Source of the DNA: Chiloscyllium plagiosum | Taxonomy: Eukaryota | Assembly: GCF_004010195.1 (NCBI RefSeq) | Contig: NC_057751.1 | Location: 17,327,960-17,391,959, forward strand | Reading direction: 5' to 3' | Length of the DNA stretch: 64,000 bases | Part shown: positions 2,177 to 43,647 of the stretch, in pieces | How positions within the stretch are numbered: position 1 is the stretch's first letter | Layout of the letters: the number at the start of each line of letters is the position of its first letter | The notes under the pieces: model-generated | Databases searched by the model: none | What the model was told of the DNA's origin: nothing | Seen by the model: only the letters and a program-made list of their open reading frames with translations | Program-made: the position numbers and the translations under genes

Positions 2177-4901
2177 AATATTCAATCAAACAAAAATCAA
2201 AGCAACTGACTGAGCAGCACTTAGTGTGTTCGATTCAGAAGAAGAAAATATCCGGGACATGTCTGAGCGATTTTGTCAGCTAGGGACAGGAAGTTGGACA
2301 ATCTGAGGAATACTGAGAACTGTTGTCAGATGCCAAATAGAAAGGGGCCAAGGAGGGTAGATGGCTCTGGTATGACCTGAAGTGAATGAAGAGAAGTAAG
2401 CAGTCTCCATTATAAAGAGTTTCACAACAATAGAAGAGGAGGAAACATAATTCTTGGAGGGAATAAATAGACACGAATTAGGAGCAGAAGGAGACCGTTT
2501 ATCTTTTTGAGTTCGCCAGACTTTTCAATCAAATCAGGGCTGATCACCTGCATCAATATCAGTTTCCTTCACCACATCGACTCCAGTTGTTCTGAAACTG
2601 AGGAAGTTGAACTATCCCCGTGCTGAACTGAGATTATTGGAGACCTGAAATTTACAAAAGTTGTCAGAAAAGTTATCAGTGCAGCGAACGTTCAGTTGAC
2701 CAGATATAAAAATGGCAGGAAAGCAATCGAAGTGCCTCCCGCAGGACAGGAAGTGAAGCTGATCGACAGATTCTCTTCCATGAGTTCTCAGCTACTCACA
2801 TTCGCTCACGCAAAGCAATTACAGCTTCACAAAAAAAATGTTGCGCATACGGCAAATCTTCATGTGTAATTGCATTCTAACAAAATTCACAATGAGAAAC
2901 AAGTGTTTTTAATTTTCATTCTGTCCCTATCCTGGTCCTTTCACTGCTGTCACCCGTCCACCTGAGTGAACACCTGGGCTTTTCATGTGTGAAAGTGCCG
3001 TGTTACAATTTCAGCACAGCAAGCAGATGAGTTTGGAAGTGAAATAATAGGCCATCACATAGATGTGGGGATGATACAGTTCCCCATTCATGTTAAGCGT
3101 TGACTGTCACTCAGAGCTAAACTGAGGACCGTTCACTTGCTCCATCTTCATCTGCATAAATACTTTCAGAATATATTCTTAGCAGACAGTCCGTTTTCGA
3201 GCCGAAAGTGATTAGAAGGTTTTCAGTTAGACGAGTCTTTTCCATTTTCATGACATTGATACCAGTCTCGTTGCTGAAAATTTCATAGATTGCATTTCTT
3301 CCCCAGTCTCGATTACGTCACTGCTGGAACTCAGAGATTCCACACTGTGGTAACTGGACTTTAGCAAATTCAATGCTGTCTGTTCTCCAACTGTCATGAC
3401 GTCCCACTCATCAGTCATTCCCGTCTGCTTACTACCCACATTCATACCCCCTATCAACTATCATCCTGAATGAAATAAGCTTGCCCTTTTATATCAATCT
3501 CTGCATGCCTCTACCTATCCAAACGTGGAAATTACTAATCTTCTATTACCGGATTTATGTTGATTGCCTCCTCCAGTCACTTTGTTTCTCCTTACTTCTG
3601 TTTCATGCTGGAGTCGTGCATGTCCCAAAGCACTCTACTCGTTGTCAAATCGCCATCATCACAAACGCCTGCAGCCCTTCCGTTCGCTGCAATGCCCTTC
3701 AGACCATCTATGATATTATCCTTAAAATGGTCCTGTCTCTAAAGTTCTCCATAACACGGTGCTGTCTATTGCCATCTCCAGCTTTGAAAACATCTACAAT
3801 TTATTAAAGCTCCAGCACCGAGAAATATTTTGAGTTCCTCTAATTCGACGAGTCCCTCAGCACGCACAGTCTCAGTTATACCATGCAGACCTCACAATGC
3901 TTGCCATGTGTTTCACAGTCTCCATCCCACCAGCAAACATATCAATCTCCCCAGTTTCCTTCTTCATTCCTATCTGTGTAACTCCTCCACCAATGAAGTT
4001 CTCCATATTTCTGCAACCTCTTCCTGACAGACAGTGTTCATTGGCTGCATACACCTGTACTTGGAAGTAACACTCAGTAACTCCTCCAGTTAATCTCCAG
4101 TTACTGCCTTCTAATATCTGTTATCGTCTCAAACACCAGCATATGTGACTATCTCTGCAGCTTCCAACATCCCTAACACAGCTCCTCGTTGTTCTAACCT
4201 TCGCCAATCACACGTACGCTCTCAACCTTGTATGTACCCTGACATGCGTCAAATTCGTCGAGCCATTCCTGCATCTGTAACATCTCATGCCGGCCTTTCC
4301 AATACCCCGACCTGTACATTCATTCCAACCAATGTCCATTCATCTGTGAGTCCAACACTCCTTACAATACTTCCCTTCGCTGCATTTTCCGACTACGCCC
4401 AAAGCACTACCCCACCTTTGTTCTGTCCGTTTCGTTAACATCTTCCAAACGCAAAAACATGCCCATTGCTGCTATCATCTTCAGTCCTAATACACCTACG
4501 TATCTTGGTACAATATTTCATTCAGCACAAATGCGAAGTGTGTTTCCGTCTGTCTCATTCAAGAATGTGTCAACATTTGCCATTGCAGAATTTGTTGAAT
4601 GCTGCTGTTTTGCAGGGTGCAACATTTTGATGACCGCTGCAGGCCACTCCTCCTGAACAATATCTGACGATGCTGAATGGAGGCCACTCCTCCCACACTT
4701 TCTTCATTGTGATGCTGCCTGCACGCTAGTCTGCCTGGCCTACATTCCAGTGTACCACACTGGAAGTCATTTTTCGATTCTTCCCAGCCAGACCTTATGT
4801 AACAGTTTTCAGAAGGTTTCTAGAAAGGACTCACTGCCTCACGACATGGAGAATCCACCACAGAAAATTGGGAAACATGCAGAATACCATGTACCTCACA
4901 T

Positions 4902-5514
4902 TGAAGATCTAAGATCACTTAAGAGGAACCTCTTGTTTCGAGGTCGGTCAAAATAATCGACAAATGCGGTCTGTTCACACAGCAACGGTCATGGGTTATT
5001 AGAATTAAGGTATCTTGACGCAATTCTATCAAACAACACTGAGTTTAAAGCTTCTGTGTTCCGTGGTGAAGTTGCAGAATTACATTTGAAAATTACACAT
5101 TATTTGTATGATTTTCTTAAGAGATAGTACAGCCTTAATTACAGGGAAGATCAATCACATGTAATAAGGTGACATGATTTACAGCAAGTTAGTCCAGTGG
5201 TTTTCCTGGGAAAGGGTTTTTAATTACAAGAAATTTTCAATCAACTGTGATATGGTGACATGATTGACAACAGGTTACTCGAATGATATTCCTTGGAAAA
5301 GAAATCTTATTTACGTAAATTATGATGCCATATATTTGTTCAAAGTTGTTCGAATGATCAATTAATGTATCAGTATTATTTTATGAAAACTCTATTGTCT
5401 CCATTTTTGAATTTAAGCTTAATTATGCAAATCAACAGTGCAGCGTCAGAGGGTTCAATCACTATTCTCAGCCATTTTATAGTATTCTTTTAGTTTGATT
5501 TTTTTTTTGTGGTT
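4902..5514 (-). repeat. ERV 3' LTR (copy 1; start of U3 and PPT deleted)
   Basis: Direct repeat of 16736-17355, e.g. shared AATCGACAAATGCGGTCTGTTC; terminus TGAAGATCT on the plus strand. Confidence 0.85.
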
Positions 5515-5533
5515 CATAAAGGCATGGATCAAA

Positions 5534-7750
5534 TTAATCCAATTCAATGGCAGCGAAGAATTTCTCTTCCTCAAAACGGGAACCAGGGGCAGGCAATGAT
5601 GATTCCTCATCATGATTTAAGAGGATACGAAGCACTTTCTGCTTGGAACCAATACTATTAATAGACGTTAATATTTTAGCAATAATACACTTAACTATAG
5701 CAATACCAACACAAAGACCAATTGAATCAATAGCACCATATATAGCCATCTTCATTAGCTAGTTGTACCATGATCCATAAACCCTAATCTCCCCATCCTG
5801 CATCATTGTTCATTTGGTTGATAAAAGTGCGAATATTATCAATTTGTCTAGTAATGTTTTTGATAAGATCAGTGACCCCGATACTGCCATTTTCTTTAAT
5901 TATAGCGCAAAATGCACCTTCCTTCACAAGTATGTAATCAGTTTCGTTGGGCGAATAGATGCAATTCTGAAAGCATGTCCTTAATTTCTATTAAGGCAGC
6001 AGTTGTCTAATTTCACCAAATCTTGAGTTCACAAATAAGAGAATTGTGGTTTTGATGACTAATAACTCCTGAAGACCCTCATCATGAAAGAACACTTAGA
6101 GCTGCATATGCCAATGAGTGTGCTTCACTTCTTGATATGGACTTTGGATTCTGCACAGAGGTCTGGAGAAACTTAACGTTGAAAGGGGGAGTTGTGATCC
6201 CCTTGCTAAGTAATTGGACAGGGAACAGTAGTTGGAAAATGTGTACCTACTGGTACCGCACGAGGAGTACGTGCTCTATTCAGGACTAACCATAACTAAA
6301 AAAAAAACACAATATCCAAGTTTAGTATCGATGATAGAGGGACCTTCCCAGTAAGAAGCGGGCCTATCTTTGTGACTTCGTGGGGTATGTGGATAATCCA
6401 TGATTACATAATTTGGCTCTGGGTGCTGAGAGTGAAAACCATCCAATCGAATGTGGTGAGTTTCTTAATAAGAAATATGGTTGGCATCCCAAAATGGTTC
6501 TACCCATTCAATGATTTGGAAAATATTCGTGCCATGAGGGGGATCATAAGGAATGTGGGTGTTGTTACCCTTTCCATATAGATAGGGATACATTTTTCGA
6601 TAAGGCTTAAACATGAGATGCGAGATCCTTCCGAAAAGCAGTGACGACTAATACATTTAATCATAGCACTGAGAATAATTTTAGGAACTCTTAATGAGCG
6701 CATCCCCATCCCTTACTATTGTAACAATTGGGATAGGATATTGTGCATTTTTTGGAGGAAGTCCATAAAAAGTCGCAAGTGGGAATAGGTAATAACCAAA
6801 AGAGATATTACATCCTGTCAATACTGTATTACTATTCCATGCCCCCATGTTAGGAGTTGGATGGATAAAAGGGGCCAGGGTGTCTCTTGCTGAAGTAAGG
6901 GCATAACAAACTACTTCATCCTCTCCACATATTTTATGACGGGTTTCTAGAAACAAATTGTTAGTGAAGGATAACATCCCCCACTCCCCTTTGTCTCTTT
7001 TGCTACGTGATCTATCTGAAAGGGGACAAGGCTGACCAGGTATGCCCAAAGTACAAATGTAATCAAAATGGAATGCAAAACCTTCACAGGGTAAAGACCA
7101 TTTAGACTTGTTCTGTTCATCTTTTTTGATGCAGCTGACCACTGCAAAAGTCATTCTTGGGAACATTCAGTCTTTCAGCTCGTAACGACATCTTCCTGGT
7201 ATATTTGGTACACAGTCTCTGTTTGCTCTGGATCGCACAGGTAAAGTGTCCCTTCCTCCGCACGAATGCTGGCAATGGCATGTTCACACAGCAGGTCAAG
7301 TTCGATCTTTGTCATCACCCACCTCGCAAGGTTGGAGACCCCGGAGTGTCCATTGTAATAAAGTATAAACCATTTCCTCCTTGTATATTGTATATAAGTG
7401 TATACAATATAGATATAATCTAGGAAAATTGGAAACAGCAAAGAGGTAGCACAAACTAATGTATTTGAGGTCATCAATATTCTGATGTGTGTATCGAGGG
7501 TGTACCTTATTTGAGGCTATAATTTGTGCTCTTCGGCAGGCTAGAATCCCTAGGAGCAATTTTGAAATAAATAATTCTCAAATTAATCAAACTCAAATAG
7601 CCCTCTGGAGTAAATATGTTTCCCATACTGGCAAAAAGCTCTTTCATGCTAACTGTACTGGAGATTCCCTTCCTACCCATTATTTTCTTACTTTATATGG
7701 AAAAGCCAAGGTATGGACGAATTGAGCAACCTATTTTTTTATAAATCCAG
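5534..7750 (-). pseudogene. env: ERV env remnant, copy 1
   Basis: Cys-rich fragments with a furin-like RSKR (ORF 6681-7166); TM ectodomain SELHLFAQRN/DYILVKEGAFCAIIK (immunosuppressive-domain-like); hydrophobic anchor and tail (ORF 5534-5755) ending just before the LTR. Confidence 0.75.
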
Positions 7751-9625
7751 CTTTACTAGGATGTATACTGTTTGAGGTGTTGCTACTTTAAACATTTATA
7801 TTGTATACAATTTAGATTAGATCAGCAATATATTGCATTCTCCTTTCCAAAAAAAAACCCTTGAGCCCAAATTAAATGGCTTGATCTACAACTGTAGATA
7901 ACAGTATTTAGAATTAAGTGTAAGAACCCAATGGTGATTTTCAGCAGAAAACCTGGTAATGAATATTACGTTGTCCCCAAATATGGGAACATGACACAAT
8001 GCTTTCAAATAACACTGATATATTTACAAATATTAAGCTTACGCTAGAATTTAGATATTGGTACAATCTTAAAATTATAAACCATCACTGGTTAGTATTG
8101 AATATCTAAGTAAAGTTAACAGCTCATCCCGACAGTCCTTCTTAGATCGAACAGCACAATTAAAAAATAACTCATGTCAACCAGTGTGTATTCTTATGAG
8201 CTCCACACACAAAGCAAAGATATTTAGGCTTAACGTCCATGTATGAAATTGAATCACTTGATAATTCAGTCGGTAGTATATTCTAAAATAAAGTATTTAT
8301 TTCAGAAATGGAAATTAGCACATGATTTCCAAATTTCAAAATAATTTTGAAAGCAATCTAAGCACTAAACCCATATGATTACAGTCACTAAGCAACAGAG
8401 AAATCAACATCTACATTGTGAATTGGCATTGAATCATTCCCCTGTGACTTTTGCACCTTACCCAGGTCTGGAATATCCATCCTTCTACTGCGTCTAACCG
8501 TGTTTTGTTGGGGATCCAATGGAAGCTTGAGGTGTAAAGCTGCCTGCTTGGCAGCTGCATATACTTGCCCACCACTTTAGAAACAGTATCAGTTTCATCA
8601 GCATGAGTCGAACGCCTTGATAATCGTCAGATTGATTGAACAAAATACTATTACTGTGATGAAGCGCCCTTGGGCTTAAAAATCTTCAATGTTCCGACAA
8701 GGCTCCAAAATGATGGATCATATTAAAATCACAATGAAGATTCAGTGTTTATTAGTAGATTTTGATCGGATGAAAGCATGTTGATACCCAACGTCAGCTC
8801 CGATGTAATATTGAAGAGACATTACTCCCAGTTGGCCACATTTCAACAGTTAAAGCAAGTCCAGGAATTTGCCCCTGGGGTTTTTGATGTCTTGTTGCCA
8901 GACTCAAAGTTGAAATGTTGGGGCCTGCCTGGCCCATTTTCAGGATCCTCTCGGGAAGAATTTGCCAAGCAGTGGTCTTTGGGGATGTACATGAGTTAGG
9001 TTTCTCACCCAGCAGGTATCCTGGTTCCAATCAAACTTATCAGTGCTGGTATACGGCCTTTTGGATCGCGACGGCGGTGTATACAATTTGTTTTATCTGT
9101 AACTTGCATCATGGTTCACTCCGGTTCTGGTCATAACATATAAATCCACTGCTCACCTCAATTGCGACTGGAAATTCCTGGACTGGTTCGTCGTGTTGTT
9201 CTGCATCCTGACAGTTACTCCAGGCAGACAACATTGCAAAAACAGTGGGTGAAAGAAAGGTAATTGAGCTGCTTGATCACTGTTCAATTGTTTATCACTT
9301 CCATCAGACAGATAGGTGCATCTTTCAGTCATGTAAATAAAGCCATTCGTATTTATGTTACTCCCAGAATTTTACTGTATTTACATTCGTATCACTCTCG
9401 GACATATTGAACAAATTTGGCCGGTTTGGTCTTGCAGTTGGACACATGCTTCATGAACATAACTCTAGTTCCCGGGGTGGGACTCGGTTTAGGATGGTGG
9501 AGGATACACATCCCCATAATATCGGCTATGAAGAATGGTTGCTTCACTTTCAAAAGAAGGAAAAGTGAACAATAAGTGGATGGTTTAAATTAAGCCTGAT
9601 GACAATCAGGAGATGATTACATTTC

Positions 9626-9912
9626 CTGCAGTGTGGAAACAGGCCCTTCAGCCCAAAACGTTCACACTGATCCATCAAAGAGTAATTAACCCAGACCCAT
9701 TTTCCTCTCAAAAGACTTTAGGCAAATTAGCATGACCAATTCACCTGATACGCACATCTTTGGACTGCGGGAAGAAACAGGAGCACCTGGAGAAAACCCA
9801 TGCAGACACAGGGGGAATGTGCAAACTCCAGGCAGACAGTAGCCTAAGGCTGGCAGTGAAACCAGGAACCTGGCTGCAGTGAGGCAGTAGTGCTAACAAT
9901 TGAAGCACCAGG
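9626..9912 (-). mobile_element. tRNA-derived SINE (HE1/V-SINE-like)
   Basis: tRNA-like head, TGGAGTTTGCACATTC core and AAGGGCCTGTTTCCACACTG tail. Confidence 0.85.
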
Positions 9913-12506
9913 TTCAGCACATATTTAACGGCAAAATCCCTATCCTCAAAGAGGGTACGCCAAACAAAGGCTCGGGATTCTGAGTAGAATCTAAGTTACC
10001 GTATTTTTTACAGTATTTACAATTTACATTATTGTTGCTTTATTATATATCTATCTCCCACATTATTCAACTGGCCAGTAAGGTAGCTTTGCATTCTTTA
10101 AATACCAATGAATTAATGCAGCTATGTTTCAAATTAAATATGAATTAATATTACAGTTCACCGACAATATGTGAAGAAATCCTGTCAATTAACTTTGATT
10201 TGGACTAAAACAATTGATTTATTAAAAATAATATAAATCATAATAAATGTAATAATAAATAAAATAATTAATTAAAATAATCATTATCTGTAATTCAGGG
10301 TGGAAACCAACAAGTGATGAAAACATTTCATAAACTGTACATTGCTGCTTTATTCTTCTTATCACATCATTCTCTTCTCTTCTGCAATTGATCTGCAAGC
10401 CGCTAATTGTATTTTAACCTTATTTAACCAATTTATCAATTTATGTTTGTCCATATTTAAAGCCTGTTCCGCCCTATACATTTTGGAATCTTGATTATCA
10501 TAATCTAAAAGTTAATCTTAGGATTTGAATATTCAGCTAACTCCATGGCAATGGGGCCGTGATGCGACAAAAGTAATAGTGATCGATATACCACCCTGTT
10601 CCTCGATAGTTTTGGCTGACCCTATTGTCCAAAGGGAAGAATGGTGGGTGACAGCAGTGCCTGGTTAAGTCAGGCAGCAGTTCTTTTTCATTTATTATGG
10701 ACACCGAATGATATGGATAGAATTCATTTTGGATTTTGGAGAGAGCACTGAGCGGAGTGGTACCAAGCATACTTTACGCATTACTGAGTGGGGATCCAGC
10801 TGAAGAAGATTACGGAAAATAAGTTTTTATTTATTCTTGTGGACATTGGAGAAGCAACAGAGCTGAGTTCTCTTTGTCTTGTTTTGAGAGCAGATATTCC
10901 CTGTGGTAATATATCAATGGTCATTATTTTTTACAATATATCTCTGAGTAGCATATTGGCTTATATATTTTATAAATACATATATTGGAAATTCATTTAT
11001 TCAATATATAATATTTAAAATGTAAAATGCACACCGTTCCCAGCTTTAAAACTCATCATAGTTAAATTTAGTCCCTTAATTTAAATCCAAAATTAGAATT
11101 CTAGAGTAGTCCTGAACAGTCATGGCTCAATTACAATGCTAAAGATCCTGAAATAACTGGAGCTGCCTCAAAAGGTTTTGTCTACTCACTGAAAAAAGAA
11201 CTTATACTGCACGAATAATAGCAGAATCCAAGACACAAATATTAATCAAAGGATATTAATTTTTAGATGATTTATCACAAGTTAATGTTGAGCTGCGACA
11301 TCAATTGTCATTGAAGGACTCCCTCCAAAAGATTACAACTTTCCTAACCAATAATCTCCAATAAAACACAGCAGTCTTAAAATTAAGTTGAAGTAAACGT
11401 GTCTGAAACAAATAAAAGGTTACAATGTTGTCTTCCTCGGTATTAAACTGATTTCAAATTGAATAAGGTTGGCTTTCATGTAAAGATAAAGGAGATTAGT
11501 TAGAAACTGAAAGTGGGACAGTCATGACCTGTCAAAAGAACAGGAGTTAATATTTTATTTCATAATCACTTAAGGTCCTTAAACGTAAAAGTAATCATGT
11601 TAAATTTCCAAAATGCGAACCAGATTCAAACCAGTCCTGGATCTTGAGCTGGAAGGACAAACATTCAATCACTGACAAACTAATGTGAATTCCAACAGAA
11701 TCACAAAGGGTTAAACTTTCTTCTATCTTTGACAGCTCTTTCTCTCTCACTCTCTCTCTCTCTCTCTCACACACACACGAGGGAGGGACATACACACACA
11801 CACCCCATATTTCAGGTTTTACCTTGGGAGTGAAGTCTCGTAAATCCTGGTTTTGCCTCATCGTTACTTAACCAACTGTGCAAGAATTGTTTCCGCTGGC
11901 CAGCCTTATCTTTTCACACATCAAGAACAACGACCACCCTCCATATTTCATGAACAAATAACAATTACCAAAACGAACAAAAAACAAAAAAGCAACAGAG
12001 CAAGACATGTCAAGCTGAACATTTGACGACGGAAAAGGGATTATTTTGTGAAAGAAAACTGTTGATTTGTACTCTGACTCTTGCGTGTGGTGGAGGATGA
12101 CTGTAATCAGGAGTTTATCCCAAGTGCCATAGGAATTCTGAGTGTAGCTCTCATGAAAACGTCTTTAGTTTCCCTGTGTGGTCTTTCGAGGGCAATTAGA
12201 GGTCGAATGGTGGAGACTGCCGCAAATAAGGCAGTTTCTAGTCGGGCAGTCACGAGCCCAGTGATATAGGCTGTTACAATTTAAACAGGTTGGGCATGAA
12301 CCCCAAGGGGGAGTCCCACTGCCATCCCCACGACCGTGGTCTTGATTGGTGCAGCGCCACTACTATGATGACCGGGTAGCTGTTGAGGTGTCTCCTCTTA
12401 GACTACAAATTCTGATTTTACACGGATTGGTAGTCTATCTTCACTCTGCTGATTCCACAAGGCCGCAATAGAACGATGGAGTTGATTAGGGATGTCTTCA
12501 AACCAG

Positions 12507-12780
12507 GAGAAAATGAGGTCTGCAGATGCTGGCGATCAGAGCTGAAAATGTGTTGCTGGATAGCGCAGCAGGTCAGGCAACATCCAGGGAACAGGAGAAT
12601 CGACGTTTCGGGCATAATCCCTTCTTCAGGAAAGAGGAAATTTTGTCCAGCAGACTAAGATAAAAGGTAGGGAGGAGGGACTTGGAGGAGGGGCGTAGGA
12701 AATGTGACAGGTGGAAAGAGGTCAAGGTGAGGGTGATAGGACAGACTGGGGTGGGGGCGGAGAGGTCAGGAAGAAGATTG
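12507..12780 (-). mobile_element. Penelope-like element terminal fragment
   Basis: Same ~130-bp module as 13191-13324 and 28526-28933 (minus strand CCTGAAGAAGGG-x4-GCCCGAAACGTCGATTC) plus a purine-biased extension. Confidence 0.65.
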
Positions 12781-13058
12781 TGATTTCAAATTGAATAAGG
12801 TTGGCTTTCATGTAAGGATAAAGTTAGAAAGTGAAAGTGGGACAGTCATGACCTGTAAAAAGAACAGGAGTTAATATTTTATTTCATAATCACTTAAGGG
12901 TCCTTAAACTTAAAAGTAATCATGTTAAATTTCCAAAATGCAAACCAGATTCAAAACAGCCCTGGATCTTGAGTTGGAAGGACAAACATTCAATTACTAA
13001 CAAACAAATGTGAGTTCAAACAGAATCACAAAGGGTTCAACGTTCTTCTATCTTTGAC

Positions 13059-13105
<47 letters not shown>

Positions 13106-13190
13106 ACACACATACACACACACATCATATCTCAGGTTTTACCTTGTGAGTTAAGTCTCGTAAATCCTGGCTGTGCCTCATCGTTACTTA

Positions 13191-13324
13191 GCCCTTCCTG
13201 AAGAAGGGTTTATGCCCGAAAAGTCGATTCTCCTGTTCCCTGGATGCTGCCTGACCTGCTGCGCTTTTTCAGCAACACATTTTCAGCTCTGATCTCCAGC
13301 ATCTGCAGACCTCACTTTCTCCTC
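13191..13324 (+). mobile_element. Short Penelope-like terminal module with flanking duplication
   Basis: Flanked by CCTCATCGTTACTTA at 13176-13190 and 13321-13335; absent at the paralogous sites ~11870 and ~37766. Confidence 0.7.
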
Positions 13325-14307
13325 ATCGTTACTTAACCAACTGTGCAAGAATTGTTACCACTGGCCAACCTTATCTTTTCATACATCAAGAACAACGACC
13401 ACCCTCCATATTTCATAAACAAAGAACAATTACCAAAACGAACAAAAAACAACAGAGCAAGACATGTCAAGCTGAACATTTGACTACGGAAAAGGAATTA
13501 TTTTGTGAAAGAAAACTGTTGATTTGTACTCTGACTCTTGTGTGTAGTGGAGGATGACTGTAAGCAGGAGTTTACCCCAAGTGTCATAGGAATTCTGAGT
13601 GTAGCTCTCATGAAAACGTCTTTAGTTTCCCTGTGTGATCTTTCGAGGGCAACCAGAGGTCAAATGGAGGAGACAGCCGCAAGTAACGCAGGTTCTGGTC
13701 GGGCAGTTACGAGCTCAATGATATCGGCTGTTACAATTTAAACAGGCTGGCATGAACCACAAGGAGGAGTCCCACTGCCATTGACCGTGGTCTCGATTGG
13801 TGCAGGGCCACTACTATGATGCCCGGGTAGCTGTTGAGGTGTCTCCTCTTAGACTACAAATTCTGATTATACACTGATTGGTAGTCTGTCTTAACTCTGC
13901 TGATTCCACAAGGCCGCAATAGAACGATGGAGTTGATTAGGGATGTCTTCAAACCAGTCTAGATTGTTTGTTTTGACTGCTGTGACTACACAGGGCGGCA
14001 GGCAGTTTAATACCATAGAATTATACTGAGCATTAATAGCATTGAAATTCCAAGCCCGATCGCCAGAATCGAACTCATAACATTCTCGAAAATGGTCAAT
14101 AAAATCCTCAGCAGACTCTTTATTTTTGGTGCGAAGTTCAAGGATACGAGTAAAGTCTGCTATTACAGCAGATGCAGCAATGAGAATATTATCTTGTCTC
14201 TTTTGTTCCTGGACTATAACACTAGCAAAATCAGTAAACTTGTCATGATTAATGTGTTCAATAAACGGGCATAATCGGAGCGAGTAAACATTTCCTGTTC
14301 AAAATTT

Positions 14308-14622
14308 GGGGGGGCACAGTGGTACACTGGTCAGCACTGCTGACTCTCAGCGCCAGAGACCTGGCTTCATTTCCCGCTTCAGGCGACTGACTGTGTGGAG
14401 TTTGCACTTTCTCCCCGTGTCTGCGTGAGTTTTCTCCGGGTGCACCGCTTTACTCCCACAGTCCAAAAATGTGCAGGTTAGGTGAATTGGCCATACTAAA
14501 TTGCCCTTAGTGTTCGGTGAAGGGGTAATGTAAGGGAATGGGTCTGGGTGGGTTGCGCTTCGGCAGGTTGGTGTGGACTTGTTGGGCCGAAGGGCCTGTT
14601 TCCAACTGTAAGTAATCTAATA
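14308..14622 (+). mobile_element. tRNA-derived SINE (HE1/V-SINE-like), inserted in gag
   Basis: Same head, core and tail; TAATC-type 3' end. Confidence 0.88.
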
Positions 14623-15358
14623 TAATCATAAATGAGACCAAATGTCTTTTACTTTACCATCATAAATCTAATTGTAGTACTTAAGAAATCGACAGATTAA
14701 AAGGATAATTGACAAGTTTGAACTGGAAAGATATAGAAGTGGGCTGTGGAAGAGCGACGGGAATTCGAGAATTAAGTTAAACAGCAGTACATTCCAAAGA
14801 CTGATCAGATTGTAATGAAGAATTTAAAATGGGATCCACAAAAAAGATCACTCGTGTAAATCCGAATTATCATTGGCTTCTACGTTAAAACGAAAGCCAA
14901 CCATCGAACTGCGCAGTTCTGTTTGTTTACCAGTCACTTGTGACTTTTCCTTTTGTTTCTGATGTTGTTTTTCTGGAGCACATTCACTTTTCAGAAGTTC
15001 AACAGATTTCATAGCACCATTTGCAGTTACTTCAATCCCCAATATGGTGGTAGTATCTTGCCACGAGCGCAAAACTGATTCCTTGTGCCTGTCACCATAA
15101 AACTGTCGCCTTGATCCAATTAACTCTTTCCGACCCGCACCCATGTTACATTGCGAAATCAACTGATGATCTTATTTAACCAATTGAACAGCTTTATGAC
15201 AACCTCATGGCCGTTTTTCACCATGCAATGTTTTGTTTCGACCTTCGGACAGTTTTCTAAAGGCTTCAGACTTTTCCTGAAAATTTTCACGAAATTTCAC
15301 GAACGTTGATGGTGGATCATCTGCTCTTTCTGTGTAATTACCCAATACAAAATAACTT

Positions 15359-15663
15359 GGGTGGCACGCTGGCATAGTGGTTAGCACTACTGCCTCACAG
15401 CGCTTGAGATCTGGGTTCAATTCCTGCCTCAGGCGATGGACTGTGTGGAGTTGGTACTTTCTCCCCGTGTCTGCGTGGGTTTCCTCCGGGTGCTCCGGTT
15501 TCCTCCTACAGTCCAAAGATGTGCAGGTCAGGTGAATTGACCACGCTAAATTGTCGGCAGTGTTAGGTTAGGGGTAAATGTAGGGGAATGGTTGAGTTGC
15601 ACTTCAGCGGGTCGGTGTGGACTTGTTTGGCCGAAGGGCCTGTTTCCACGCTCTAATCTAATC
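15359..15663 (+). mobile_element. tRNA-derived SINE (HE1/V-SINE-like)
   Basis: AGTGGTTAGC A-box-like and GGTTCAATTCC B-box; (CTAAT)n tail. Confidence 0.88.
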
Positions 15664-15826
15664 TTCAGTTTTATATATGTTACTCACTGATCGGACTTCT
15701 CCAAGGCCTAATTATTTCACAAAACCTTTTTTTAACTAAATAACATTTTTATTAAATATCGCGATATTTTATTTAGAAAAATCAACTTAACTATTGTGTT
15801 TTTATTAGTAATTTAGAACTCCCTCA

Positions 15827-16178
15827 ACGTCAAATATCTGGGGCCTTCTGCATCCCCCAAAACATCAAACACCAGAGGCCTCCTGGCTCCCTAAAAACAT
15901 CAAATATCGGACGCCTCCTGCCTCCGTAAAGACTTGAAATATCGTGGGCCTCCTGCCTCACTGAAAACTTCAAATTTCGGGGACCTCTTGCCTCCCTATA
16001 ACTTCAACTATCAGGGGCCTCCTGCCTCCCTAAAAACTTGAAACATCGGGGTCCTCTTGGCTTCCTAAAACTTCAAATATCGGGGCCTCCTGTCTGCCTG
16101 AAACTTCAAATATTGGGGGCCTCCTGCCTGCCTAAAACTGCAAATATCGGGGGCCTCCTGCCTCCCTAGAACTTCAAC
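15827..16178. repeat. Tandem array of ~10 x 33-35 bp in the ERV leader
   Basis: Consensus ACTTCAAATATCGGGGGCCTCCTGCCTCCCTAAA repeated head to tail without spacers. Confidence 0.92.
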
Positions 16179-16717
16179 GCCTTTATTAAAACTGTTCAGG
16201 CCACCAGCCTCCGAAAACTGCTGAAAATACAAAGATCCGATTTTTTTAGAACCTGGAAATTAACAAAGTTCAAGCAATCGAAGATTTTTTAAAAATGGAA
16301 ATTAACAAATCTCAGGGCATCGAACATGTTTTTGGAAATCAACGAAGCTAGATAAATCGATCTTGAAAACCCAGAAATTAACAAATCTCGAGATGTCAGA
16401 GTTTAATACTCCCCTCAGAGTTCAGCAATTTTCGGAGACCACTGTCCAAAAGTCCCAAAGCAAACTCAACCTCAATTAAATTTCTCCCCCCTTTTTTAAA
16501 CATATAAAAAGTCCCCCAGACCCAACCCGCGCTAAGACCGATCCTTTCGGGCTGGACTGGAAAATGAACAGTGAAGGGTCACGTCAGACACAACGTGAAT
16601 GAGAGGAAAAGCAAACGCTCTTAAAATACTCACGCCTGACCGGCTGAATTCCACAACACTCAATAGTGAAGGATATTTAACATTACACGACAGTTCGCAA
16701 TCTGCCCGAGCCTAAAA

Positions 16718-16732
16718 CGAGTCATGGCACCA
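16718..16732 (-). promoter_or_regulatory. Retroviral primer-binding site, tRNA-His type
   Basis: Minus strand TGGTGCCATGACTCG, 3 nt after the LTR's terminal CA; matches 14 of the first 15 nt of TGGTGCCGTGACTCGGAT, the complement of the vertebrate tRNA-His 3' end. Confidence 0.82.
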
Positions 16733-16735
16733 AAA

Positions 16736-17405
16736 TGAAGATGTAAGACCCCCTTAAGAAGGCCGCTTTGGTTGGGATCGGTCTAAAGAATCGACAAATG
16801 CGGTCTGTTCAAAAAGCAACGGTCATTAGTTTATTGAATGAAAGTACCTTGACGCAATTCTATCCAGCAACACAGGGGTTAAAGCTTCTGTGTTCCGTGG
16901 TGAAATGGCGCAGTTATATTTGAAAATTGCACATTATTTGTATGATTTTTTTTTCTCAAAGATAGTACAGCCTTCATTACAAGAAAGATCAATCGAATGT
17001 AATAAGGTGACATGATTTACAGCAAGTTAATCCAATGATATTTCCTGGGAAAGGGTTATTTACAAGAAAAGTACAATCAACTGTAATATGGTGGCATGAT
17101 TGACAACAGGCTAATCCAATGGTATTCCTTTGAGAAGAATCTTATTTATAGAAATTGTCATGCCGTGTATCAGTTCAAGGTTAAGTCGAATGATCAATTT
17201 CATCTGTCAGTATTTATTTTATGAAAACTATATTGTTCGCTTATCTTTGAATTTCAGCTTAATTCTGCAAATCAGAGGTACAGGTTCTTAGGATTCAATC
17301 AGTCTTCTCAGCCATTTTATAGAATTCTTTTAATTTGAAAAGCTATTCTGTGGTTATTCAAAATCTACATATCCTTGTTGCCTCAATTCAAATTTTAGAT
17401 CTTTA
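16736..17405 (-). repeat. ERV 5' LTR (copy 1, complete, ~670 bp)
   Basis: Aligns with 4902-5514 and 43648-44299; ends ...CTTCA 3 nt before the PBS; AATAAA on the minus strand at 16835-16830. Confidence 0.85.
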
Positions 17406-18900
17406 ACATACCTGGCTATCTTTGGGAAGAAGACCTACAAGACACTCGCATAGTTTGAAGCCAAGGCAACAGAGACACCGCAAGCTTTGAAGCCAAGCGT
17501 GTCCCGCTTGCTGAGTGCAAGCGGTCAGCTCGCTGGAACAAATTGCAGATTCACAGAGCTGCCAGGAACAAGGTTCATCAGACTTCCAGGCGTTGCACTG
17601 TCATGTACAGGACACAGCGAAGTGAGGAAATTCAGGTGGCCACTCTAATGGGTAACGTGAGGGGAATGTACAAAGGCATCAAGAATATACGAGGATGATC
17701 TGAAAGCAAGACAGGCCCCTTCAACCCGCTTAGAAGGGAGAAATCACAGACAAAAGCCAGCAGAAGACGAGGTGGGATGAACACTACTCTGATCTCGACG
17801 CCAGAGATGATACCGTGTCTGCTTCAGCACTTGATGTCGCCATATGCTTGCTGACTATGAAAGAGCAAGATGCAGATCCATCCTTAGAAAACTCAGCAAG
17901 GCCATGGATAGCTTGGCTCCGGTAAGACCCGGAGTAGCGACTGGATTCCTCCTGTTTGATCAAGTGCTGCAAAACAGTTTACAGCTCCCATTGCATGAAG
18001 TCCTCTGCCAATGCTGGCAAGAAGGAGTTGTCATGAGGGATGCCAATAATAGTGCCCACTACAACAGCAAGGTCGAGGGAAGCGACTTCAACATTTACAG
18101 AGGCAGCTCTCGCCTCAACACTTACGGCAAAGCCTTTGCTCGGTCATATTGACTCCCCTGGAGAAAGTGGCAAAATGTTGAAGATCAGAGGCACAGTGCG
18201 ACTTCCGACCAGTCATCACCATCGATGATTTGAACACAACGTTGCTCATCAGTTTGTGTACCTTGGCTCAACCATCATGAAAATATAAGCACAGTGCTGT
18301 AAGGCAGTGAAAATGGGACTACACATGACAGACAGGACAGAAGACTGAATACCTTCAATTTGAGGAGTATCTGCCTCATCCTGGACATGTCCTGGCAAGA
18401 CAGAATATGCAATGCCATGGTCCTAATTCGCGCTTGCCTTCGCAGCGTCCACAATGTGCTCAGGCAGCGGAGACTACACTGCCATGGCCACTTCCACCCA
18501 TTGGAGTATGGTCGCATCGCAATAGATATCCTCTATGGAGACCTTGCATCCGGGAAGAGAAACATTTGGCGACCATAGTAGGGCTTCAAAGACGTCTGTC
18601 AGAGGGACATGAAGGCGCTTGAAATCAGACTGGAATCCTGGAATGCACGAGATCTAGAAGCACCATGAACCAACACCTCAAAAAATGGGAGAAGAAGCTA
18701 ATGAGCACTACAGCAGAGACGCTGGCAATAAGAAATAAGTGTGGCTGTTCTAGCAGATCAACGACCACATACAGATGTGACCTCTGCTACCGGGTCTGAC
18801 ACTCCAGCATTGTTCTCTTCTGTCTCAAGCAACGTTGCTTCATGGAAGCAGGAACCGAGATCAACTAGGATACAACCTATTGTCAACCATTACCGAAAGA
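17406..18900 (+). mobile_element. RTE-clade LINE, degenerate 3' part (5' part at ~4660-4901, split by the ERV)
   Basis: LAIFGKKTYK...FEAK; LRSICLILDMSWQDR...LRQRRL...GRIAIDILYGDLASGKR; terminal RCDLC..V.HS zinc-finger-like motif, typical of an RTE ORF C-terminus. Confidence 0.8.
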
Positions 18901-34311: not shown

Positions 34312-34838
34312 TCAGGATCTAAAATTTGAATTGAGGCAACAAGATATGTAGATTTTTATTAACCACAGAATAGCTTTTCAAATTAAAAGAATACTATAAA
34401 ATGACTGAGAAGACTGATTGTATCCTAAGAACCTGTACTGCTGATATGCAGAATTAAGCTGAAATTCAAAGATAAGCGAACAATTTAGTTTTCATAAAAT
34501 GAATACTGACACATAAAATTGATCATTCGACTTAACCTTGAACTGATACACGGCATGACAATTTACGTAAATAAGATTCTTCTCACAGGAATACCATTGG
34601 ATTAGCCTGTTGGCAATCATGTCACCATATTACAGTTGATTGTACTTCTCTTGTAAATAAGAACCCTTTCCCAGGAAATATCATTGGATTAGCTTGCTGT
34701 AAATCATGTCATCTTCTTATATTCTATTGATCTTTCTTGTAGTCAAGGCTGTACTATCTCTGAGAAAAAAAAAGCATACAAATAATGTGCAATTTTCAAA
34801 TATAACTGCGTCATTTCACCACGGAACACAGAAGCTTA
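34312..34838 (+). repeat. ERV 5' LTR (copy 2, 3' end deleted)
   Basis: Mirror of 16878-17405; joins directly to leader sequence equivalent to ~16260. Confidence 0.8.
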
Positions 34839-34920
34839 ATTTCCAGGCTGTAAAAAAATCGGATCTTTGTATTTTCAGCAGTTTTCGGAGGCTGGTGGCC
34901 TGAATAGTTTTAATAAAGGT

Positions 34921-35273
34921 GTTGAAGTTCTAGGGAGGCAGGAGGCCACCGATATTTGCAGTTTTGGGGAGGCAGGAGGCCCCCAATATTTGAAGTTTCA
35001 GGCAGACAGGAGGCCCCAGATATTTGAAGTTTTAGGGAGCCAAGAGGACCCCGATGTTTCAAGTTATTAGGGAGGCAGGAGGCCCCTGATAGTTGAAGTT
35101 ATAGGGAGGCAAGAGGTCCCCGAAATTTGAAGTTTTCAGTGAGGCAGGAGGCCCACGATATTTCAAGTCTTTACGGAGGCAGGAGGCGTCCGATATTTGA
35201 TGTTTTTAGGGAGCCAGGAGGCCTCTGGTGTTTGATGTTTTGGGGGATGCAGAAGGCCCCAGATATTTGACGT
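34921..35273. repeat. Mirror copy of the 33-35-bp leader array
   Basis: Reverse complement of 15827-16178. Confidence 0.92.
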
Positions 35274-35446
35274 TGAGGGAGTTTTAAATTACTAATAAAA
35301 ACACAATAGTTAAGTTGATTTTTCTAAATAAAATATCGCGATATTTTATAGAAAAAGTTATTTAGTTAAAAAATGGTTTTGTGAAATAATTAGGCCTTGG
35401 AGAAGTCTGATCAGTGAGTAACATATATAAAACTATAAAACTGAAG

Positions 35447-35731
35447 TTTAGATTCGAGCGTGGAAACAGGCCCTTCGGCCCAACAAGTCCACACCGACCC
35501 GCCGAAGTGCAACCCACCCATTCCCCTACATTTACCCCTTACCTAACACTACGGACAATTTAGCGTGGCCAGTTCACCTGACCTGCACATCTTTGGACTA
35601 TGGGAGGAAACCCACGCAGACACGGGGAGAAAGTGCAAACTCCACACAGTCAGTCGCCTGAGGTGGGAATTGAACCCAGGTCTCAAGCGCTGTGAGGCAG
35701 TAGTGGTAACCACAATCCCACCGTGCCGCCC
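35447..35731 (-). mobile_element. tRNA-derived SINE (mirror of 15359-15663)
   Basis: Family match with a small internal deletion. Confidence 0.87.
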
Positions 35732-35744
35732 AAGTTATTTTATA

Positions 35745-37472
35745 TTGGGTAATTACATAGAAAGAGCAGATGATCCACCATCAACGTTCGTGAAATTTCG
35801 TGAAAATTTTCAGGAAAAGTCTGAGGCCTTTAGAAAACTGTCCGAAGGTCCAAACAAAACATTGCATGGTGAAGAACGGCCATTAGGTTGTCATAAAGCT
35901 GTTCAATTGGTTAAATAAGCTCATCAGTTGATTTCGCAATGTAACATGGGTGCGGGTAGGAAAGAGTTAATTGGATCAAGGCGACAGTTTTATGGTGACA
36001 GGCACAAGGAATCAGTTTTGTGCTCGTGGCAAGATACTACCACCATATTGGGGATTGAAGTGACTGCAAATGGTGCTGTGAAATCTGTTGAACTTCTGAA
36101 AAGTGAATGTGCTCGAGCAAAACATCAGAAACAAAAGGAAAAGTCACAAGTGACTGGTAAACAAAAAGAACTGCGCAGTTCGATGGTTGGCTTTCGTTTT
36201 AACGTGGAAGCCAATGATAATTCGGATTTAGATGAGTGATTTTTTTTGTGGATCCCATTTTAAATTCTTCATTACAGGCTGATCAGTCTTTGGAATGTAC
36301 CCTTGTTAAACTTAATTCTCGAATTCCCGTTGCTCTCCCACATCCCACGTCTATATCTTCCCAGTTTAAACTTGTCAATTATCCTTTTAATCTGTCGATT
36401 TCTTAAGTACTACAATTAGGTTTTTGATGGTAATGCAAAAGACATTTCGACTCATTTATGATTATATCAGATTACATACAGTGTGGAAACAGGCCCTTCG
36501 GCCCAACAAGTCCACACCAACCTGCCGAAGCGCAAACCACCCAGACCCATTCCCTTACATTTACCCCTTCACCGAACACTCTGGGCAATTTAGTATGGCC
36601 AATTGACCTGACCAGCACATTTTTGGACTGTGGAAGGAAAGCGGAGCACCCGGAGAAAACTCACGCAGACAAGGGGAGAAAGTGCAAACACCACACAGTC
36701 AGTCACCTGAGGCGTGAAATGAACCCAGGTCTCTGTCGCTGTGAGGCAGCAGTGCTGGCCAGTGTACCACTGTGCCCCCCAAATTTTCAACAGCAAATTT
36801 TTACTCGTTCCGAATATGCCCGTTTATTGAACACATTAATCATGACAAGTTTACTGATTTTGCTAGTGTTACAGTCCAGGAACAAAAGAGACAAGATAAT
36901 ATTCTCATTGCTGCATCTGCTTTAATAGCAGACTTTACTCGTATCCTTGAACTTCACATCAAAAATAAGGAGTCTGCTGAGGATTTTATTGACCGTTTTC
37001 GAGAATGTTATGAGTTCGATTCTGGCGATCGGGCTTGGAATTTCAATGCTATTAATGCTCAATATAATTCTATGGTATTAAACTGCCTGCCACCCGGTGT
37101 AATCACAGCAGTCAAAACAAACAATCTCGACTGGTTTGAAGACATCCCTAATCAACTCCATCGTTCTATTGCGGCCTTGTGGAATCAGCAGAGTGAAGAC
37201 AGACTACCAATCCGTGTAAAATCAGAATTTGTAGTCTGAGAGGACACACCTCAACAGCTACCCGGGCATCATAGTAGTGGCCATGCACCAATCGAGACCA
37301 CGGTCGTGGGGATGGCAGTGGGACTCCCCCTTGGGGTTCATGCCCAGCCTGTTTAAATTGTAACAGCCTATATCACTGGGCTCGTGACTGCCCGACTAGA
37401 AACTGCGTTACTTGCGGCTGTCTCCTCCATTTGACCTCTAGTTGCCATCGAAAGATCACACAGGGAAACTAA
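35745..37472 (+). pseudogene. gag: ERV gag remnant (MA-CA-NC), interrupted by a SINE at ~36468-36780
   Basis: Starts (L/M)GNYIERA; capsid MHR-like KNKESAEDFIDRFRECYE in ORF 36772-37239; CLNCNSLYHWARDC and CVTCGCLLHLTSSC (two CX2CX4HX4C) at 37350-37445; ends QGN* at 37472. Confidence 0.8.
36468..36780 (-). mobile_element. tRNA-derived SINE (mirror of 14308-14622)
   Basis: Family match. Confidence 0.87.
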
Positions 37473-37838
37473 AGACGTTTTCATGAGAGCTACACTCAGA
37501 ATTCCTATGACACTTGGGGTAAACTCCTGATTACAGTCATCCTCCAACACAAGCAAGAGTAAGAGTTCAAATCAACAGTTTTCTTTCACAAAATAATTCC
37601 TTTTCCGTAGTCAAATGTTCAGCTTGACATGTCTTGCTCTGTTGCTTTTTTGTTTTTTGTTCGTTTTGGTAATTGTTCATTGTTTATGAAATATGGAGGG
37701 TGGTCATTGTTCTTGATGTGCGAAAGATAAGGTTAGCCAGCGGTAAGAATTCTTGCACAGTTGGTTAAGTAACGATGAGGCACAGCCAGGATTTACGAGA
37801 CTGAACTCACAAGGTAAATAAAACCTGAGATATGTGGT

Positions 37839-37881
<43 letters not shown>

Positions 37882-39371
37882 TGAGAGAGAAAGAGCTGTC
37901 AAAGATAGAAGAAAGTTGAACCCTTTGTGATTCTGTTTGAATTCATATTTGTTTGTTAGTGATTGAATGTTTGTCCTTCCAGCTCAAGATCCAGAGCTGT
38001 TTTGAATCTGGTTTGCATTTTGGAAATTTAACATGATTACTTTTAAGTTTAAGGACCCTTAAGTGATTATGAAATAAAATATTAACTCCTGTTCTTTTTA
38101 CAGGTCATGACTGTCCCACTTTCACTTTCTAACTAATCTCCTTTATCCTTACATGAAAGCCAACCTTGTTCAATTTGAAATCAGTTTAATATCGAGGAAG
38201 ACAACATTGTAACCTTTTTTTGTTTCAGAAACGTTTGCTTCAACTTAATATTTAGACTGCTGTGCTTTATTGGCGATTATTGGTTAGGAAAGTTGTAATC
38301 TTTTGGAGGGAGTCCCTCAATGACAATTGATGTCTCAGTTCAACATTAGCTTGTGATAAATCATCTAAAAATTAATATCCTTTGATTAATATCCGTGTCT
38401 TTGGATTCGGCTATTATTCGTGCATTATAAGTTCTTTTTTCATTGAGTAGACAAAACCTCTTCAGGAAGCTCCAGTTATTTCATGATCTTTAGCATTGTA
38501 ATTGAGCCATGACTGGTCAGGACTACTCTAGAATTCTAATTTTTGATTTAAATTAAGGGACTAAATTTAACTATGATGAGTTTCAAAGCTGGGAACGGTG
38601 TGCATTTTACATTTTAAATATAATATACTGAATAAATGCATTTCCAATATATGTATTTATAAAATAAAAAGAAAATATGCTACTCAGATATATATAGTAA
38701 AAAATAATGACCATTGATATATTACCACAGGGAAGATCTGCTCTCAAAACAAGACAAAGAGAACTAAGCTCTGTTGATTCTCTAATGTCCACAAGAATAA
38801 ATGAAAACTTATCTTCCATAATCTTCTTCAGCTGGATCCCCACTCAGACAAACATAAATTGATAAATTGGTTAAATAAGGTTAAAATACAAATAGCGGCG
38901 TGCAGATCAATTGGAGAAGAGAAGAAGAATAAAGCAGCAAAGTACAGGTTTTGAAATGATTTCGTCACTTGCTGGTTTCCACCCTGAATTACAGATAATG
39001 AGTATTTTAATGTATTATTTTATTTATTATTACATTTACCATGATTTATATTATATTGAATAAATCAATTGTATTAGTCCAAATCAAAGTTAATTGACAG
39101 GATTTCTTCACATATTGTCGGTGAACTGTAATATTAATTAATATTTAATTTGAAACATAGCTGCATTAATTCATTGGTATTTAAAGAATGAAAAGCTACC
39201 TTACTGGCCAGTTGAATAATGTGGGAGATAGATATATAATAAAGCAACAATACTGTAAATTGTAAATACTGTAAACAATACTGTAACTTAGATTCTTCTC
39301 AGAATCCCGAGCCTTTGTCTGGCATACCGACCATCTTTGAGGATCAGGATTTTGCCGTTAAATATGTGCTG

Positions 39372-43553: not shown

Positions 43554-43591
43554 TTTGATGCATGCCTTTATGGTGTGGTCATAGAATGACC

Positions 43592-43647
43592 AAAGGGGGT
43601 GGATGGGGGGTGGGGTGGGGTGGGGGGTGAGGCGGGGGGGGGCGGAA
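43592..43647 (+). promoter_or_regulatory. Polypurine tract, expanded into G-runs
   Basis: AAAGGGGGTGGATGGGGGGTGGGG...GGAA immediately 5' of the 3' LTR. Confidence 0.7.

What the first reader, a model, noticed from the sequence alone, without database searches (positions are those of the whole stretch)
4902..17405. Reconstructable, probably uncharacterised cartilaginous-fish endogenous retrovirus with a tRNA-His PBS
Seen: paired ~670-bp LTRs, 4-bp TSD ACAT, PBS TGGTGCCATGACTCG, gag with MHR-like and CCHC motifs, env with ISD-like DYIL.KEGGFCAII and a membrane anchor. Known: tRNA-His priming is used by walleye dermal sarcoma virus (epsilonretrovirus) and HERV-H. Inferred: an old class I, possibly epsilon-like, lineage. 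The ORF track shows it only as scattered fragments.
Basis: partly seen in the sequence, partly recalled or inferred. Interest (0 to 1): 0.75.

Follow-up and report, generated by a model that had tools for sequence, protein, structure and literature searches.

The report
Polymerase-less shark retrovirus with filovirus-like envelope
This is a dead copy of a many-times-copied retrovirus family of a shark-like fish whose polymerase region has decayed almost beyond recognition, so it likely spread by borrowing enzymes from polymerase-bearing relatives, and its envelope is of the filovirus-like kind already reported from sharks and rays.

Summary
The provirus is real (minus strand): LTRs 84% identical, ACAT target duplication, tRNA-His primer site, capsid, two zinc knuckles, env. 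But it has no working pol. The 4.7 kb between the gag end and the env start is non-coding and keeps only a faint RNase H trace (19 of 33 stretches from family copies; 0 of 33 in each control).

The genome holds hundreds of LTRs and two forms of the family. The pol-less form looks commoner. The other carries gag-UGA-PR-(2H-like)-RT-RH-IN-env, is class I, and sits outside gammaretroviruses in a shark/skate clade. Env trees mix the two forms (AU p=0.002), so env was exchanged.

The TM subunit has a cysteine-bounded internal fusion loop and CX6C without the third cysteine. Its best PDB matches are filovirus GP2, a shark-ERV link published in 2024 (PMC11521997).

The window's two arms are one already dead insertion copied by a later inverted duplication. 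They share most stops and both lack pol, so 'reconstructable' is not supported. Sequence look-ups found no earlier scan note on this family.

Verdict: a non-autonomous variant of a known ERV kind; moderate interest.

The parts
17406..17409 (.). Target site duplication, 5' side (ACAT on +)
16736..17405 (-). 5' LTR, 670 bp; terminal TG decayed to TA, ends in CA; internal ~86-bp tandem duplication
16718..16732 (-). Primer binding site complementary to the tRNA-His 3' end (14/15)
15819..16177 (-). 35-bp tandem array (10.5 units) in the leader; expanded to over 3.5 kb in pol-bearing copy L077
15358..15664 (.). Inserted ~300-bp dispersed repeat (SINE-like; label recalled, not tested)
14640..15355 (-). 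5' part of gag (matrix region by position), broken
14310..14624 (.). Second ~300-bp dispersed repeat; the N-terminal half of capsid is missing at this place
13891..14298 (-). Capsid C-terminal half with MHR-like stretch
12781..13957 (-). Internal tandem duplication of the NC/gag-end stretch (second copy 11449-12506), arm A only, K2P 0.06-0.09
12031..12330 (-). Nucleocapsid with two CCHC knuckles, and end of gag; likeness to pol-bearing copies stops at about 12031, a few bases before their gag stop codon
7330..12030 (-). Non-coding middle in the place of pro-pol, about 4.7 kb, shared by the pol-less copies
9600..9950 (.). Dispersed ~300-bp repeat at the same place in L036, L047 and L052, so inserted before those copies spread
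8635..8772 (-). Faint RNase H remnant (mapped from arm B 40515-40652; arm A itself scores below threshold)
5534..7315 (-). env, full length but broken by stops and frameshifts: SU, Cys-bounded internal fusion loop, HR1 sequon, ISD, CX6C region, membrane anchor
4902..5515 (-). 3' LTR, lacking the polypurine tract and its first ~70 nt
4898..4901 (.). Target site duplication, 3' side (ACAT)
34314..44299 (+). Second copy of the same insertion in the other arm of an inverted segmental duplication; lacks the 5' LTR's 3' end, PBS and leader

Best explanation
This is a dead provirus of a multicopy class I endogenous retrovirus family whose pro-pol region has decayed to non-coding DNA, and its lineage likely spread as a non-autonomous element using the enzymes of pol-bearing relatives that share its LTR, primer site, gag and env. 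Shown: two forms with the same ends; a non-coding middle with an RNase H trace at the expected place; likeness to the partner ending at the gag stop and resuming at the env start; env trees that mix the two forms; later decay and segmental duplication of this copy. Inferred: its RNA was packaged in partner particles, primed with tRNA-His, reverse transcribed and integrated (4-bp duplication) by partner Pol; co-packaging let template switching refresh gag, env and LTR while the middle, no longer alike, kept drifting. In the sampled copies gag and env were passengers.
For: Copies: 959 LTR, 856 and 375 middle, 273 TM, 101 CA and 132 RT first-look candidates, 40 scored each, so only rough lower bounds. 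Of 13 loci picked by capsid, 1 has pol, 10 have the middle, 2 are undetermined. 20 of 20 loci picked by the middle lie behind family LTR, leader or gag pieces, 0 of 20 match the partner's pol, 1 of 20 keeps CA+NC, and 12 of 20 have TM within the 6-10 kb fetched. Seven pol-bearing copies found, none with a long intact frame. Stop-free 150-nt windows: gag 57%, pol 67%, env 56%, middle 5-10%, shuffled 6-22%. RNase H trace in 19 of 33 middle stretches, sense strand only, same profile positions; 0 of 33 antisense, 0 of 33 reversed. Junctions at the gene ends. Pol-less envs are not one clade (p-AU 0.0024, 22 rows), pol-less gags are (93/98, unstarred, 18 rows). Shared env variants among 19 pol-less copies fall evenly on codon positions (23/18/23) and include stops. 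Precedent: MusD supplies ETn in trans (PMC6466679, passages).
Against: Mobilisation in trans cannot be shown in dead copies. No intact partner was seen. Only about 250 nt of the 4.7 kb middle is recognisable as pol, so the rest could be foreign DNA. Arm A's own middle scores below threshold. Junctions exactly at gene ends fit past selection on Gag and Env better than random crossovers, yet no such selection is seen within pol-less sublineages (low power, 2-23 sites per comparison). Candidate counts depend on query length and age.
Confidence: 0.72

Rival explanations
1. recKoRV-type origin: one recombination put the decayed middle of an older, different retroelement between the gag and env of a then-active virus, and the recombinant spread in trans.
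For: The middle is barely alignable to partner pol at DNA level (best E 0.03-0.3) while gag and env are 70-85% identical; pol-less gags form one group. recKoRV lost all of pro-pol to PhER sequence (PMC12032406, passages).
Against: All 20 sampled middles sit in this family's LTR/leader context. The RNase H trace is colinear with the partner's pol and both junctions coincide with gene ends, whereas recKoRV also loses parts of gag and env.
Confidence: 0.18
2. Semi-autonomous lineage: the pol-less element kept making its own Gag and Env under selection for a long time, borrowed only Pol, and spread by reinfection.
For: Homology ends at the gag stop and env start. Differences separating pol-less from pol-bearing gag are enriched at third codon positions, 55 of 110, p 2e-4. 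Many copies keep env after losing gag.
Against: That signal cannot be placed on the pol-less stem. Variants shared within pol-less copies show no third-position excess, and shared stops occur. Most sampled copies have lost CA and NC.
Confidence: 0.2
3. An ordinary autonomous provirus that decayed in place after insertion.
For: The window copy is heavily decayed, LTR K2P 0.18.
Against: The same non-coding middle is 75-84% identical in dozens of unlinked copies, some with LTR pairs only 4-9% apart, while pol in the partner copies stays strongly recognisable.
Confidence: 0.02

Closest known systems
Chondrichthyan retroelements with filovirus-like ectodomains (Nino Barreat and Katzourakis 2024, PMC11521997; section 11, passages and one supplement part read)
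   Same: Shark and ray ERV env whose best viral matches are filovirus GP2; 14 chondrichthyan loci listed, 2 in Chiloscyllium without LTR coordinates. My family's TM falls in a clade with Heterodontus, Pristiophorus and Mobula env proteins (96/99).
   Different: In what I read they give no family anatomy, primer site, pol-less form or cysteine pattern. Their shark+filovirus sister group (posterior 0.83) is neither recovered nor rejected here (AU p 0.45). Whether their loci are this family is untested.
Anamniote ERVs with gamma-type Env (Chen et al., bioRxiv 10.1101/2021.11.23.469661; parts 1-3 of 6 and passages read, supplements closed)
   Same: Class I pol with ISD-bearing env in cartilaginous fish, over 500 copies in 3 species; CXnC subtype without the third cysteine; frequent pol/env recombination.
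   Different: No mention found of a primer site or of non-autonomous forms (0 hits for 'PBS', 'non-autonomous'). This family may be one of their lineages; the unseen supplements would decide.
Mouse ETn/MusD pair (PMC6466679, passages)
   Same: Non-coding element with traces of retroviral homology, more numerous than the coding partner that shares its LTRs and mobilises it.
   Different: ETn is class II, env-less and has no coding capacity; here gag and env frames were kept at both sides of the decayed pro-pol, and env moved between forms.
recKoRV (PMC12032406, passages)
   Same: Retroviral ends around a middle that lacks pro-pol, often more abundant than the complete virus.
   Different: Its middle comes from another element (PhER) and breakpoints cut into gag and env; here the middle carries a colinear RNase H trace and the junctions are at gene ends.
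Epsilon-like fish ERVs with a CNPase domain (PMC4977317, passage citing Basta 2009)
   Same: Pol-bearing copies have a PR-RT spacer with HITL and PHI(T/I) motifs of the 2H type.
   Different: No Pfam or PDB hit for the spacer; no trace of it in the window.

Membership tests
Class I endogenous retrovirus | LTRs, short target duplication, tRNA primer site | tested here: met
Class I endogenous retrovirus | gag-pro-pol-env order | tested here: met
   Met in partner copy L033; the window keeps gag and env and only an RNase H trace of pol
Class I endogenous retrovirus | RT groups with gamma/epsilon-like elements | tested here: met
   Partner RT in class I branch 94/95 (unstarred); MLV 4e-11 against foamy 3e-3
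Gammaretrovirus | RT inside the gammaretrovirus clade | tested here: not met
   Outside the 98/98 clade, in a 99/99 shark/skate clade (IMG/VR rows are unnamed, their identity as gammaretroviruses is inferred from grouping with a named sequence)
Gammaretrovirus | One CCHC knuckle and UAG read-through (recalled) | tested here: not met
   Two knuckles; in-frame TGA-CTA at the gag-pro junction in 3 readable of 11 stretches examined
Epsilonretrovirus (WDSV, WEHV) | RT groups with walleye viruses | not testable with these tools
   No walleye virus sequence identified among the hits
Epsilonretrovirus (WDSV, WEHV) | Env lacking gamma-type hallmarks (PMC9967133) | tested here: not met
   ISD present, TLV_coat hit
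Epsilonretrovirus (WDSV, WEHV) | Accessory genes | tested here: inconclusive
   No Pfam hit or coding trace outside gag, pol, env, but copies are decayed
Epsilonretrovirus (WDSV, WEHV) | tRNA-His primer (use by WDSV recalled, from no call) | tested here: met
Gamma-type Env | ISD between HR1 and HR2 | tested here: met
Gamma-type Env | CX6CC with third cysteine bonding SU | tested here: not met
   Third position is Ile in 29 of 30 readable rows (33 rows examined, a few may repeat a locus); also absent in the named shark and ray relatives
Alpharetroviral/filoviral variant of gamma-type Env | Internal fusion peptide flanked by two cysteines; N-glycan site in HR1 | tested here: met
   First Cys 28 of 31, second 23 of 30, sequon Asn 23 of 23 readable rows; loop 44 residues; second Cys 29 residues before the ISD as in filovirus GP2 and Tapajos GP
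Chondrichthyan filovirus-like ectodomain elements of PMC11521997 | Best viral matches are filovirus glycoproteins | tested here: met
Chondrichthyan filovirus-like ectodomain elements of PMC11521997 | Same family as the listed loci | not tested
   The supplement part read gives coordinates, not sequences
ETn-type non-autonomous ERV | Shares LTR and ends with a coding partner, lacks pol, multicopy | tested here: met
ETn-type non-autonomous ERV | Mobilised in trans by the partner | not testable with these tools
   All copies seen are dead

The most novel reading that the evidence does not exclude
A long-lived 'Pol-borrowing' retroviral lineage that kept Gag and Env while pro-pol eroded to spacer DNA, outnumbered its helper, and served as an envelope reservoir from which later pol-bearing viruses took env. 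That envelope (internal Cys-bounded fusion loop, no SU-TM cysteine, SU end resembling Tapajos virus GP) would be the nearest fossil of the protein that filoviruses captured.
Probability: 0.2. Interest if true: 0.65.

Novelty: new variant of a known kind. Interest (0 to 1): 0.38.

Why it matters
Two modest points. First, pol-based ERV screens miss the commoner form of this family, and it shows a non-autonomous design that keeps gag and env frames and trades env with its helper. Second, the family offers hundreds of copies of the shark envelope type proposed as sister to Ebola/Marburg GP2. It shares the loop cysteines and their spacing but lacks the SU-linking cysteine, as does Tapajos virus GP, which gives characters beyond a short-domain tree for the open question of how often filoviruses captured a retroviral envelope. 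The window copy itself is a dead fossil with no sign of host use.

Tried and rejected
Pfam on the window's frames read with X: only weak zf-CCHC. Word-indexed protein searches with capsid and TM, longer proteins only: nothing. Rfam over 4800-17500: 0 matches at E 0.5. Single-protein scan of viral contigs: nothing. PR-RT spacer against PDB and Pfam: no real hit. Capsid against PDB: only weak HTLV-1 capsid, E 0.03; Atlas features 0.84-0.89 to Gag clusters, a lead only.

Rejected readings. (1) The middle is a captured host gene or accessory ORF: no coding trace on either strand, RNase H trace found instead. (2) GAGGAAGAGAAA near 5560 is the polypurine tract: it is env coding sequence. (3) The inverted arms are an assembly artefact: they differ by 5-9% substitutions with few gaps and the same transition/transversion balance as the LTR pair. 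A 500-N gap at 29384-29883 borders arm B, so its orientation is unverified and no reads were laid. (4) Selection on env or gag within pol-less copies: not found. (5) Sharks as sister to mammalian filoviruses: unresolved. The quick tree (88 of 147 rows, my query row dropped) put Tapajos GP plus Mabuya Mab2 next to the shark clade, unstarred; the careful tree (32 of 36 rows, Mab2 dropped) left a polytomy. (6) An absolute date: the rate assumed in PMC4422223 would give about 400 million years, which I do not trust.

The journal version of Chen et al. was not held. Dfam and Repbase could not be searched.
Full report
Observation. The element lies on the minus strand. The 5' LTR is 16736-17405, the 3' LTR ends at 4902, and ACAT flanks both ends. 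The LTRs are 84% identical over 592 columns, K2P 0.177. The 3' LTR has lost the polypurine tract and its first ~70 nt compared with copy L033. The primer site TGGTGCCATGACTCG begins 3 nt after the 5' LTR and matches 14 of 15 nt of a tRNA-His(GTG) gene end from the same genome. Many other copies read TGGTGCCGTGAC there. Of 47 genomic matches to that tRNA end, 6 were scanned: 3 His, 1 Gln, 1 Tyr, 1 uncalled. The capsid fragment is 34% identical to a skate Gag-Pol (E 6e-17), whose matching stretch has a sub-cutoff Gag_p30 hit. Two CCHC knuckles follow. Pfam finds no capsid, pol or env family in the window itself.

The two arms. Bases 1-21.8 kb are repeated inverted at 29.9-48.9 kb with 91-97% identity. 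Arm-to-arm distance is 0.05-0.09 in flanks, LTRs and env alike, against 0.16-0.18 between the LTRs of either arm. The insertion is therefore older than the duplication. Six of arm A's 7 stops in a 228-codon env stretch are shared with arm B. Arm B lacks the primer site and leader; arm A has an extra internal duplication. The arms are not independent witnesses of the virus. A 500-N gap borders arm B, so its orientation is not verified.

A family with two forms. Searches of G000 gave 959 first-look candidates for the LTR, 101 for capsid, 273 for TM, 375 and 856 for two pieces of the middle, and 132 for RT; 40 were scored each time, so these are rough. Of 13 loci picked by capsid, 10 share the window's middle (one of them a close paralogue of the window itself), 2 are undetermined, and 1 (L033) has protease, RT and RNase H Pfam hits there instead. 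Six more pol-bearing copies and four protease-RT fragments came from the RT search; none has a long intact frame. Of 20 loci picked by the middle, 20 lie behind family LTR, leader or gag pieces, 0 match the partner's pol, 1 keeps capsid and nucleocapsid, and 12 have TM in the stretch fetched. Later sublineages thus lost gag too, while env often stayed.

The partner. In 3 readable of 11 stretches gag ends in an in-frame TGA followed by CTA and protease; read-through of such a context is recalled, not tested. RT is 61-71% identical to proteins of Heptranchias, Scyliorhinus, Leucoraja and Amblyraja, which is my basis for an elasmobranch host. It forms a 99/99 clade with them inside class I (94/95) and outside the gammaretrovirus clade (98/98) (32 rows). 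No walleye virus was identified in the set. A spacer between protease and RT has HITL and PHI(T/I) motifs. An earlier scan note (e1-7858212) prompted this check, and CNPase domains are known in fish ERVs (PMC4977317, passage); profile searches gave no hit.

The middle. Likeness between the forms stops a few bases before the partner's gag stop and resumes just inside the env start. In between, only 5-10% of 150-nt windows have a stop-free frame, as in shuffles, against 56-67% in gag, pol and env. Rfam finds nothing. A profile of pol proteins from other species finds one recurring hit, in RNase H, on the sense strand in 19 of 33 stretches (not all span the site), and in 0 of 33 antisense and 0 of 33 reversed. 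Arm B shows it at 40515-40652 (E 0.002); arm A scores below threshold. Its distance from both gene ends is roughly that of RNase H in the partner. The middle is thus at least partly an anciently decayed pro-pol, far more diverged from partner pol (DNA E 0.03-0.3) than gag and env are.

Exchange and selection. In an env tree of 22 copies, 3 pol-bearing copies nest among pol-less ones, and holding the pol-less copies together is rejected (p-AU 0.0024). In a gag tree of 18 copies the 11 pol-less ones are one side of a branch (93/98, unstarred). The trees are unrooted, so the direction of env transfer is open. Variants shared by 3 or more of 19 pol-less env copies fall 23/18/23 on the codon positions, and their synonymous share does not differ significantly from singletons (p 0.26) or from non-coding controls. 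Differences between pol-less and pol-bearing gag are third-position rich (55 of 110, p 2e-4), but sublineage differences within pol-less copies are not, on few sites. I read this as spread in trans with gag and env as passengers, refreshed by recombination with the helper. Earlier selection on them is not excluded.

The envelope. The TM stretch of L033 hits TLV_coat above cutoff. In PDB its best matches are filovirus GP2 chains (8e-10 to 1e-7), ahead of MLV p15E (4e-5), syncytins (4e-4) and ASLV (0.17, a short construct). Across copies it has two loop cysteines (28 of 31 and 23 of 30 readable), 44 residues apart, an HR1 sequon, the ISD, and CX6C followed by Ile in 29 of 30. The 14 best of 146 hits in the representative library score below 1e-10; those that carry names are from Heterodontus, Pristiophorus, Mobula and Hemiscyllium. 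The next hit is Tapajos virus GP (1.7e-9), which also lacks the third cysteine and aligns to shark env over about 230 residues, including the end of SU (29-33%). The second loop cysteine is 29 residues before the ISD in the shark clade, filoviruses and Tapajos GP. This hit set was chosen by likeness to my query, so reciprocal ranks within it are biased. My careful tree places the family in the shark clade (96/99) and leaves its link to filoviruses open (p-AU 0.45, 32 of 36 rows).

What is known. PMC11521997 (section 11, passages, one supplement part; two supplement files not searched) reports filovirus-like ectodomains in shark and ray retroelements, sister to Ebola/Marburg-type GP at posterior 0.83, with Tapajos GP grouping with lizard elements. 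PMC11398700 (passages) restates this. The Chen preprint (parts 1-3 of 6, passages; supplements closed) covers Chiloscyllium env-bearing ERVs and the CXnC subtype. PMC4422223 (part 1 of 2) and PMC6001957 (passages) describe epsilon-like shark ERVs. PMC9967133 (passages) defines gamma-type Env. Two Hoetzel preprints (passages) do not mention sharks. ETn/MusD and recKoRV are the nearest non-autonomous models. I found no description of a pol-less shark family in searches (listings); repeat databases were not available. EAV-HP as a further analogue is recalled; one search was a listing only. Earlier scan notes gave no sequence match.

Verdict. A real, dead, non-autonomous copy of an elasmobranch class I ERV family. 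The envelope kinship is published; the two-form anatomy with a decayed pro-pol and env exchange is, as far as I could search, undescribed. New variant of a known kind, interest 0.38.

Noticed in passing
window 1-21811 and 29884-48941: Large inverted segmental duplication, 91-97% identical, with a 500-N gap at 29384-29883 right before the second arm. Further close paralogues at G000:C2:0.92 Mb (96%) and C78966 (93%).
   Followed up: partly
window 15819-16177; L077 3420-7001: 35-bp GC-rich tandem array in the ERV leader, 10.5 units here and over 3.5 kb in a pol-bearing copy.
   Followed up: no
L033 4639-5235: PR-RT spacer with two His motifs of the 2H phosphoesterase type in pol-bearing copies; also visible in skate protein P0155.
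   Followed up: partly
L033 4360-4400, L083, L085: In-frame TGA-CTA at the gag-pro junction rather than the TAG recalled for gammaretroviruses.
   Followed up: partly
L069-L076 and L062: Five protease-RT fragments on different contigs with identical search scores, several next to N gaps, without LTRs; probably segmental duplicates.
   Followed up: no
P0020 against P0006, P0007, P0009, P0012: Tapajos virus GP aligns with shark ERV env through the end of SU as well as TM, and also lacks the third cysteine.
   Followed up: partly
L005/L006 (G000:C9:54.22 Mb): Tandem 2.5-kb repeat of env end plus LTR with identical LTR scores.
   Followed up: no
window 17410-18700 and 2800-4900: Flanks look like decayed LINE-type sequence by eye; no Pfam hit at E 0.01.
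   Followed up: no
window 12505-12780 and 13195-13323: Short ~130-bp dispersed repeat inserted at the ends of the internal duplication; also at 28530-28933.
   Followed up: no
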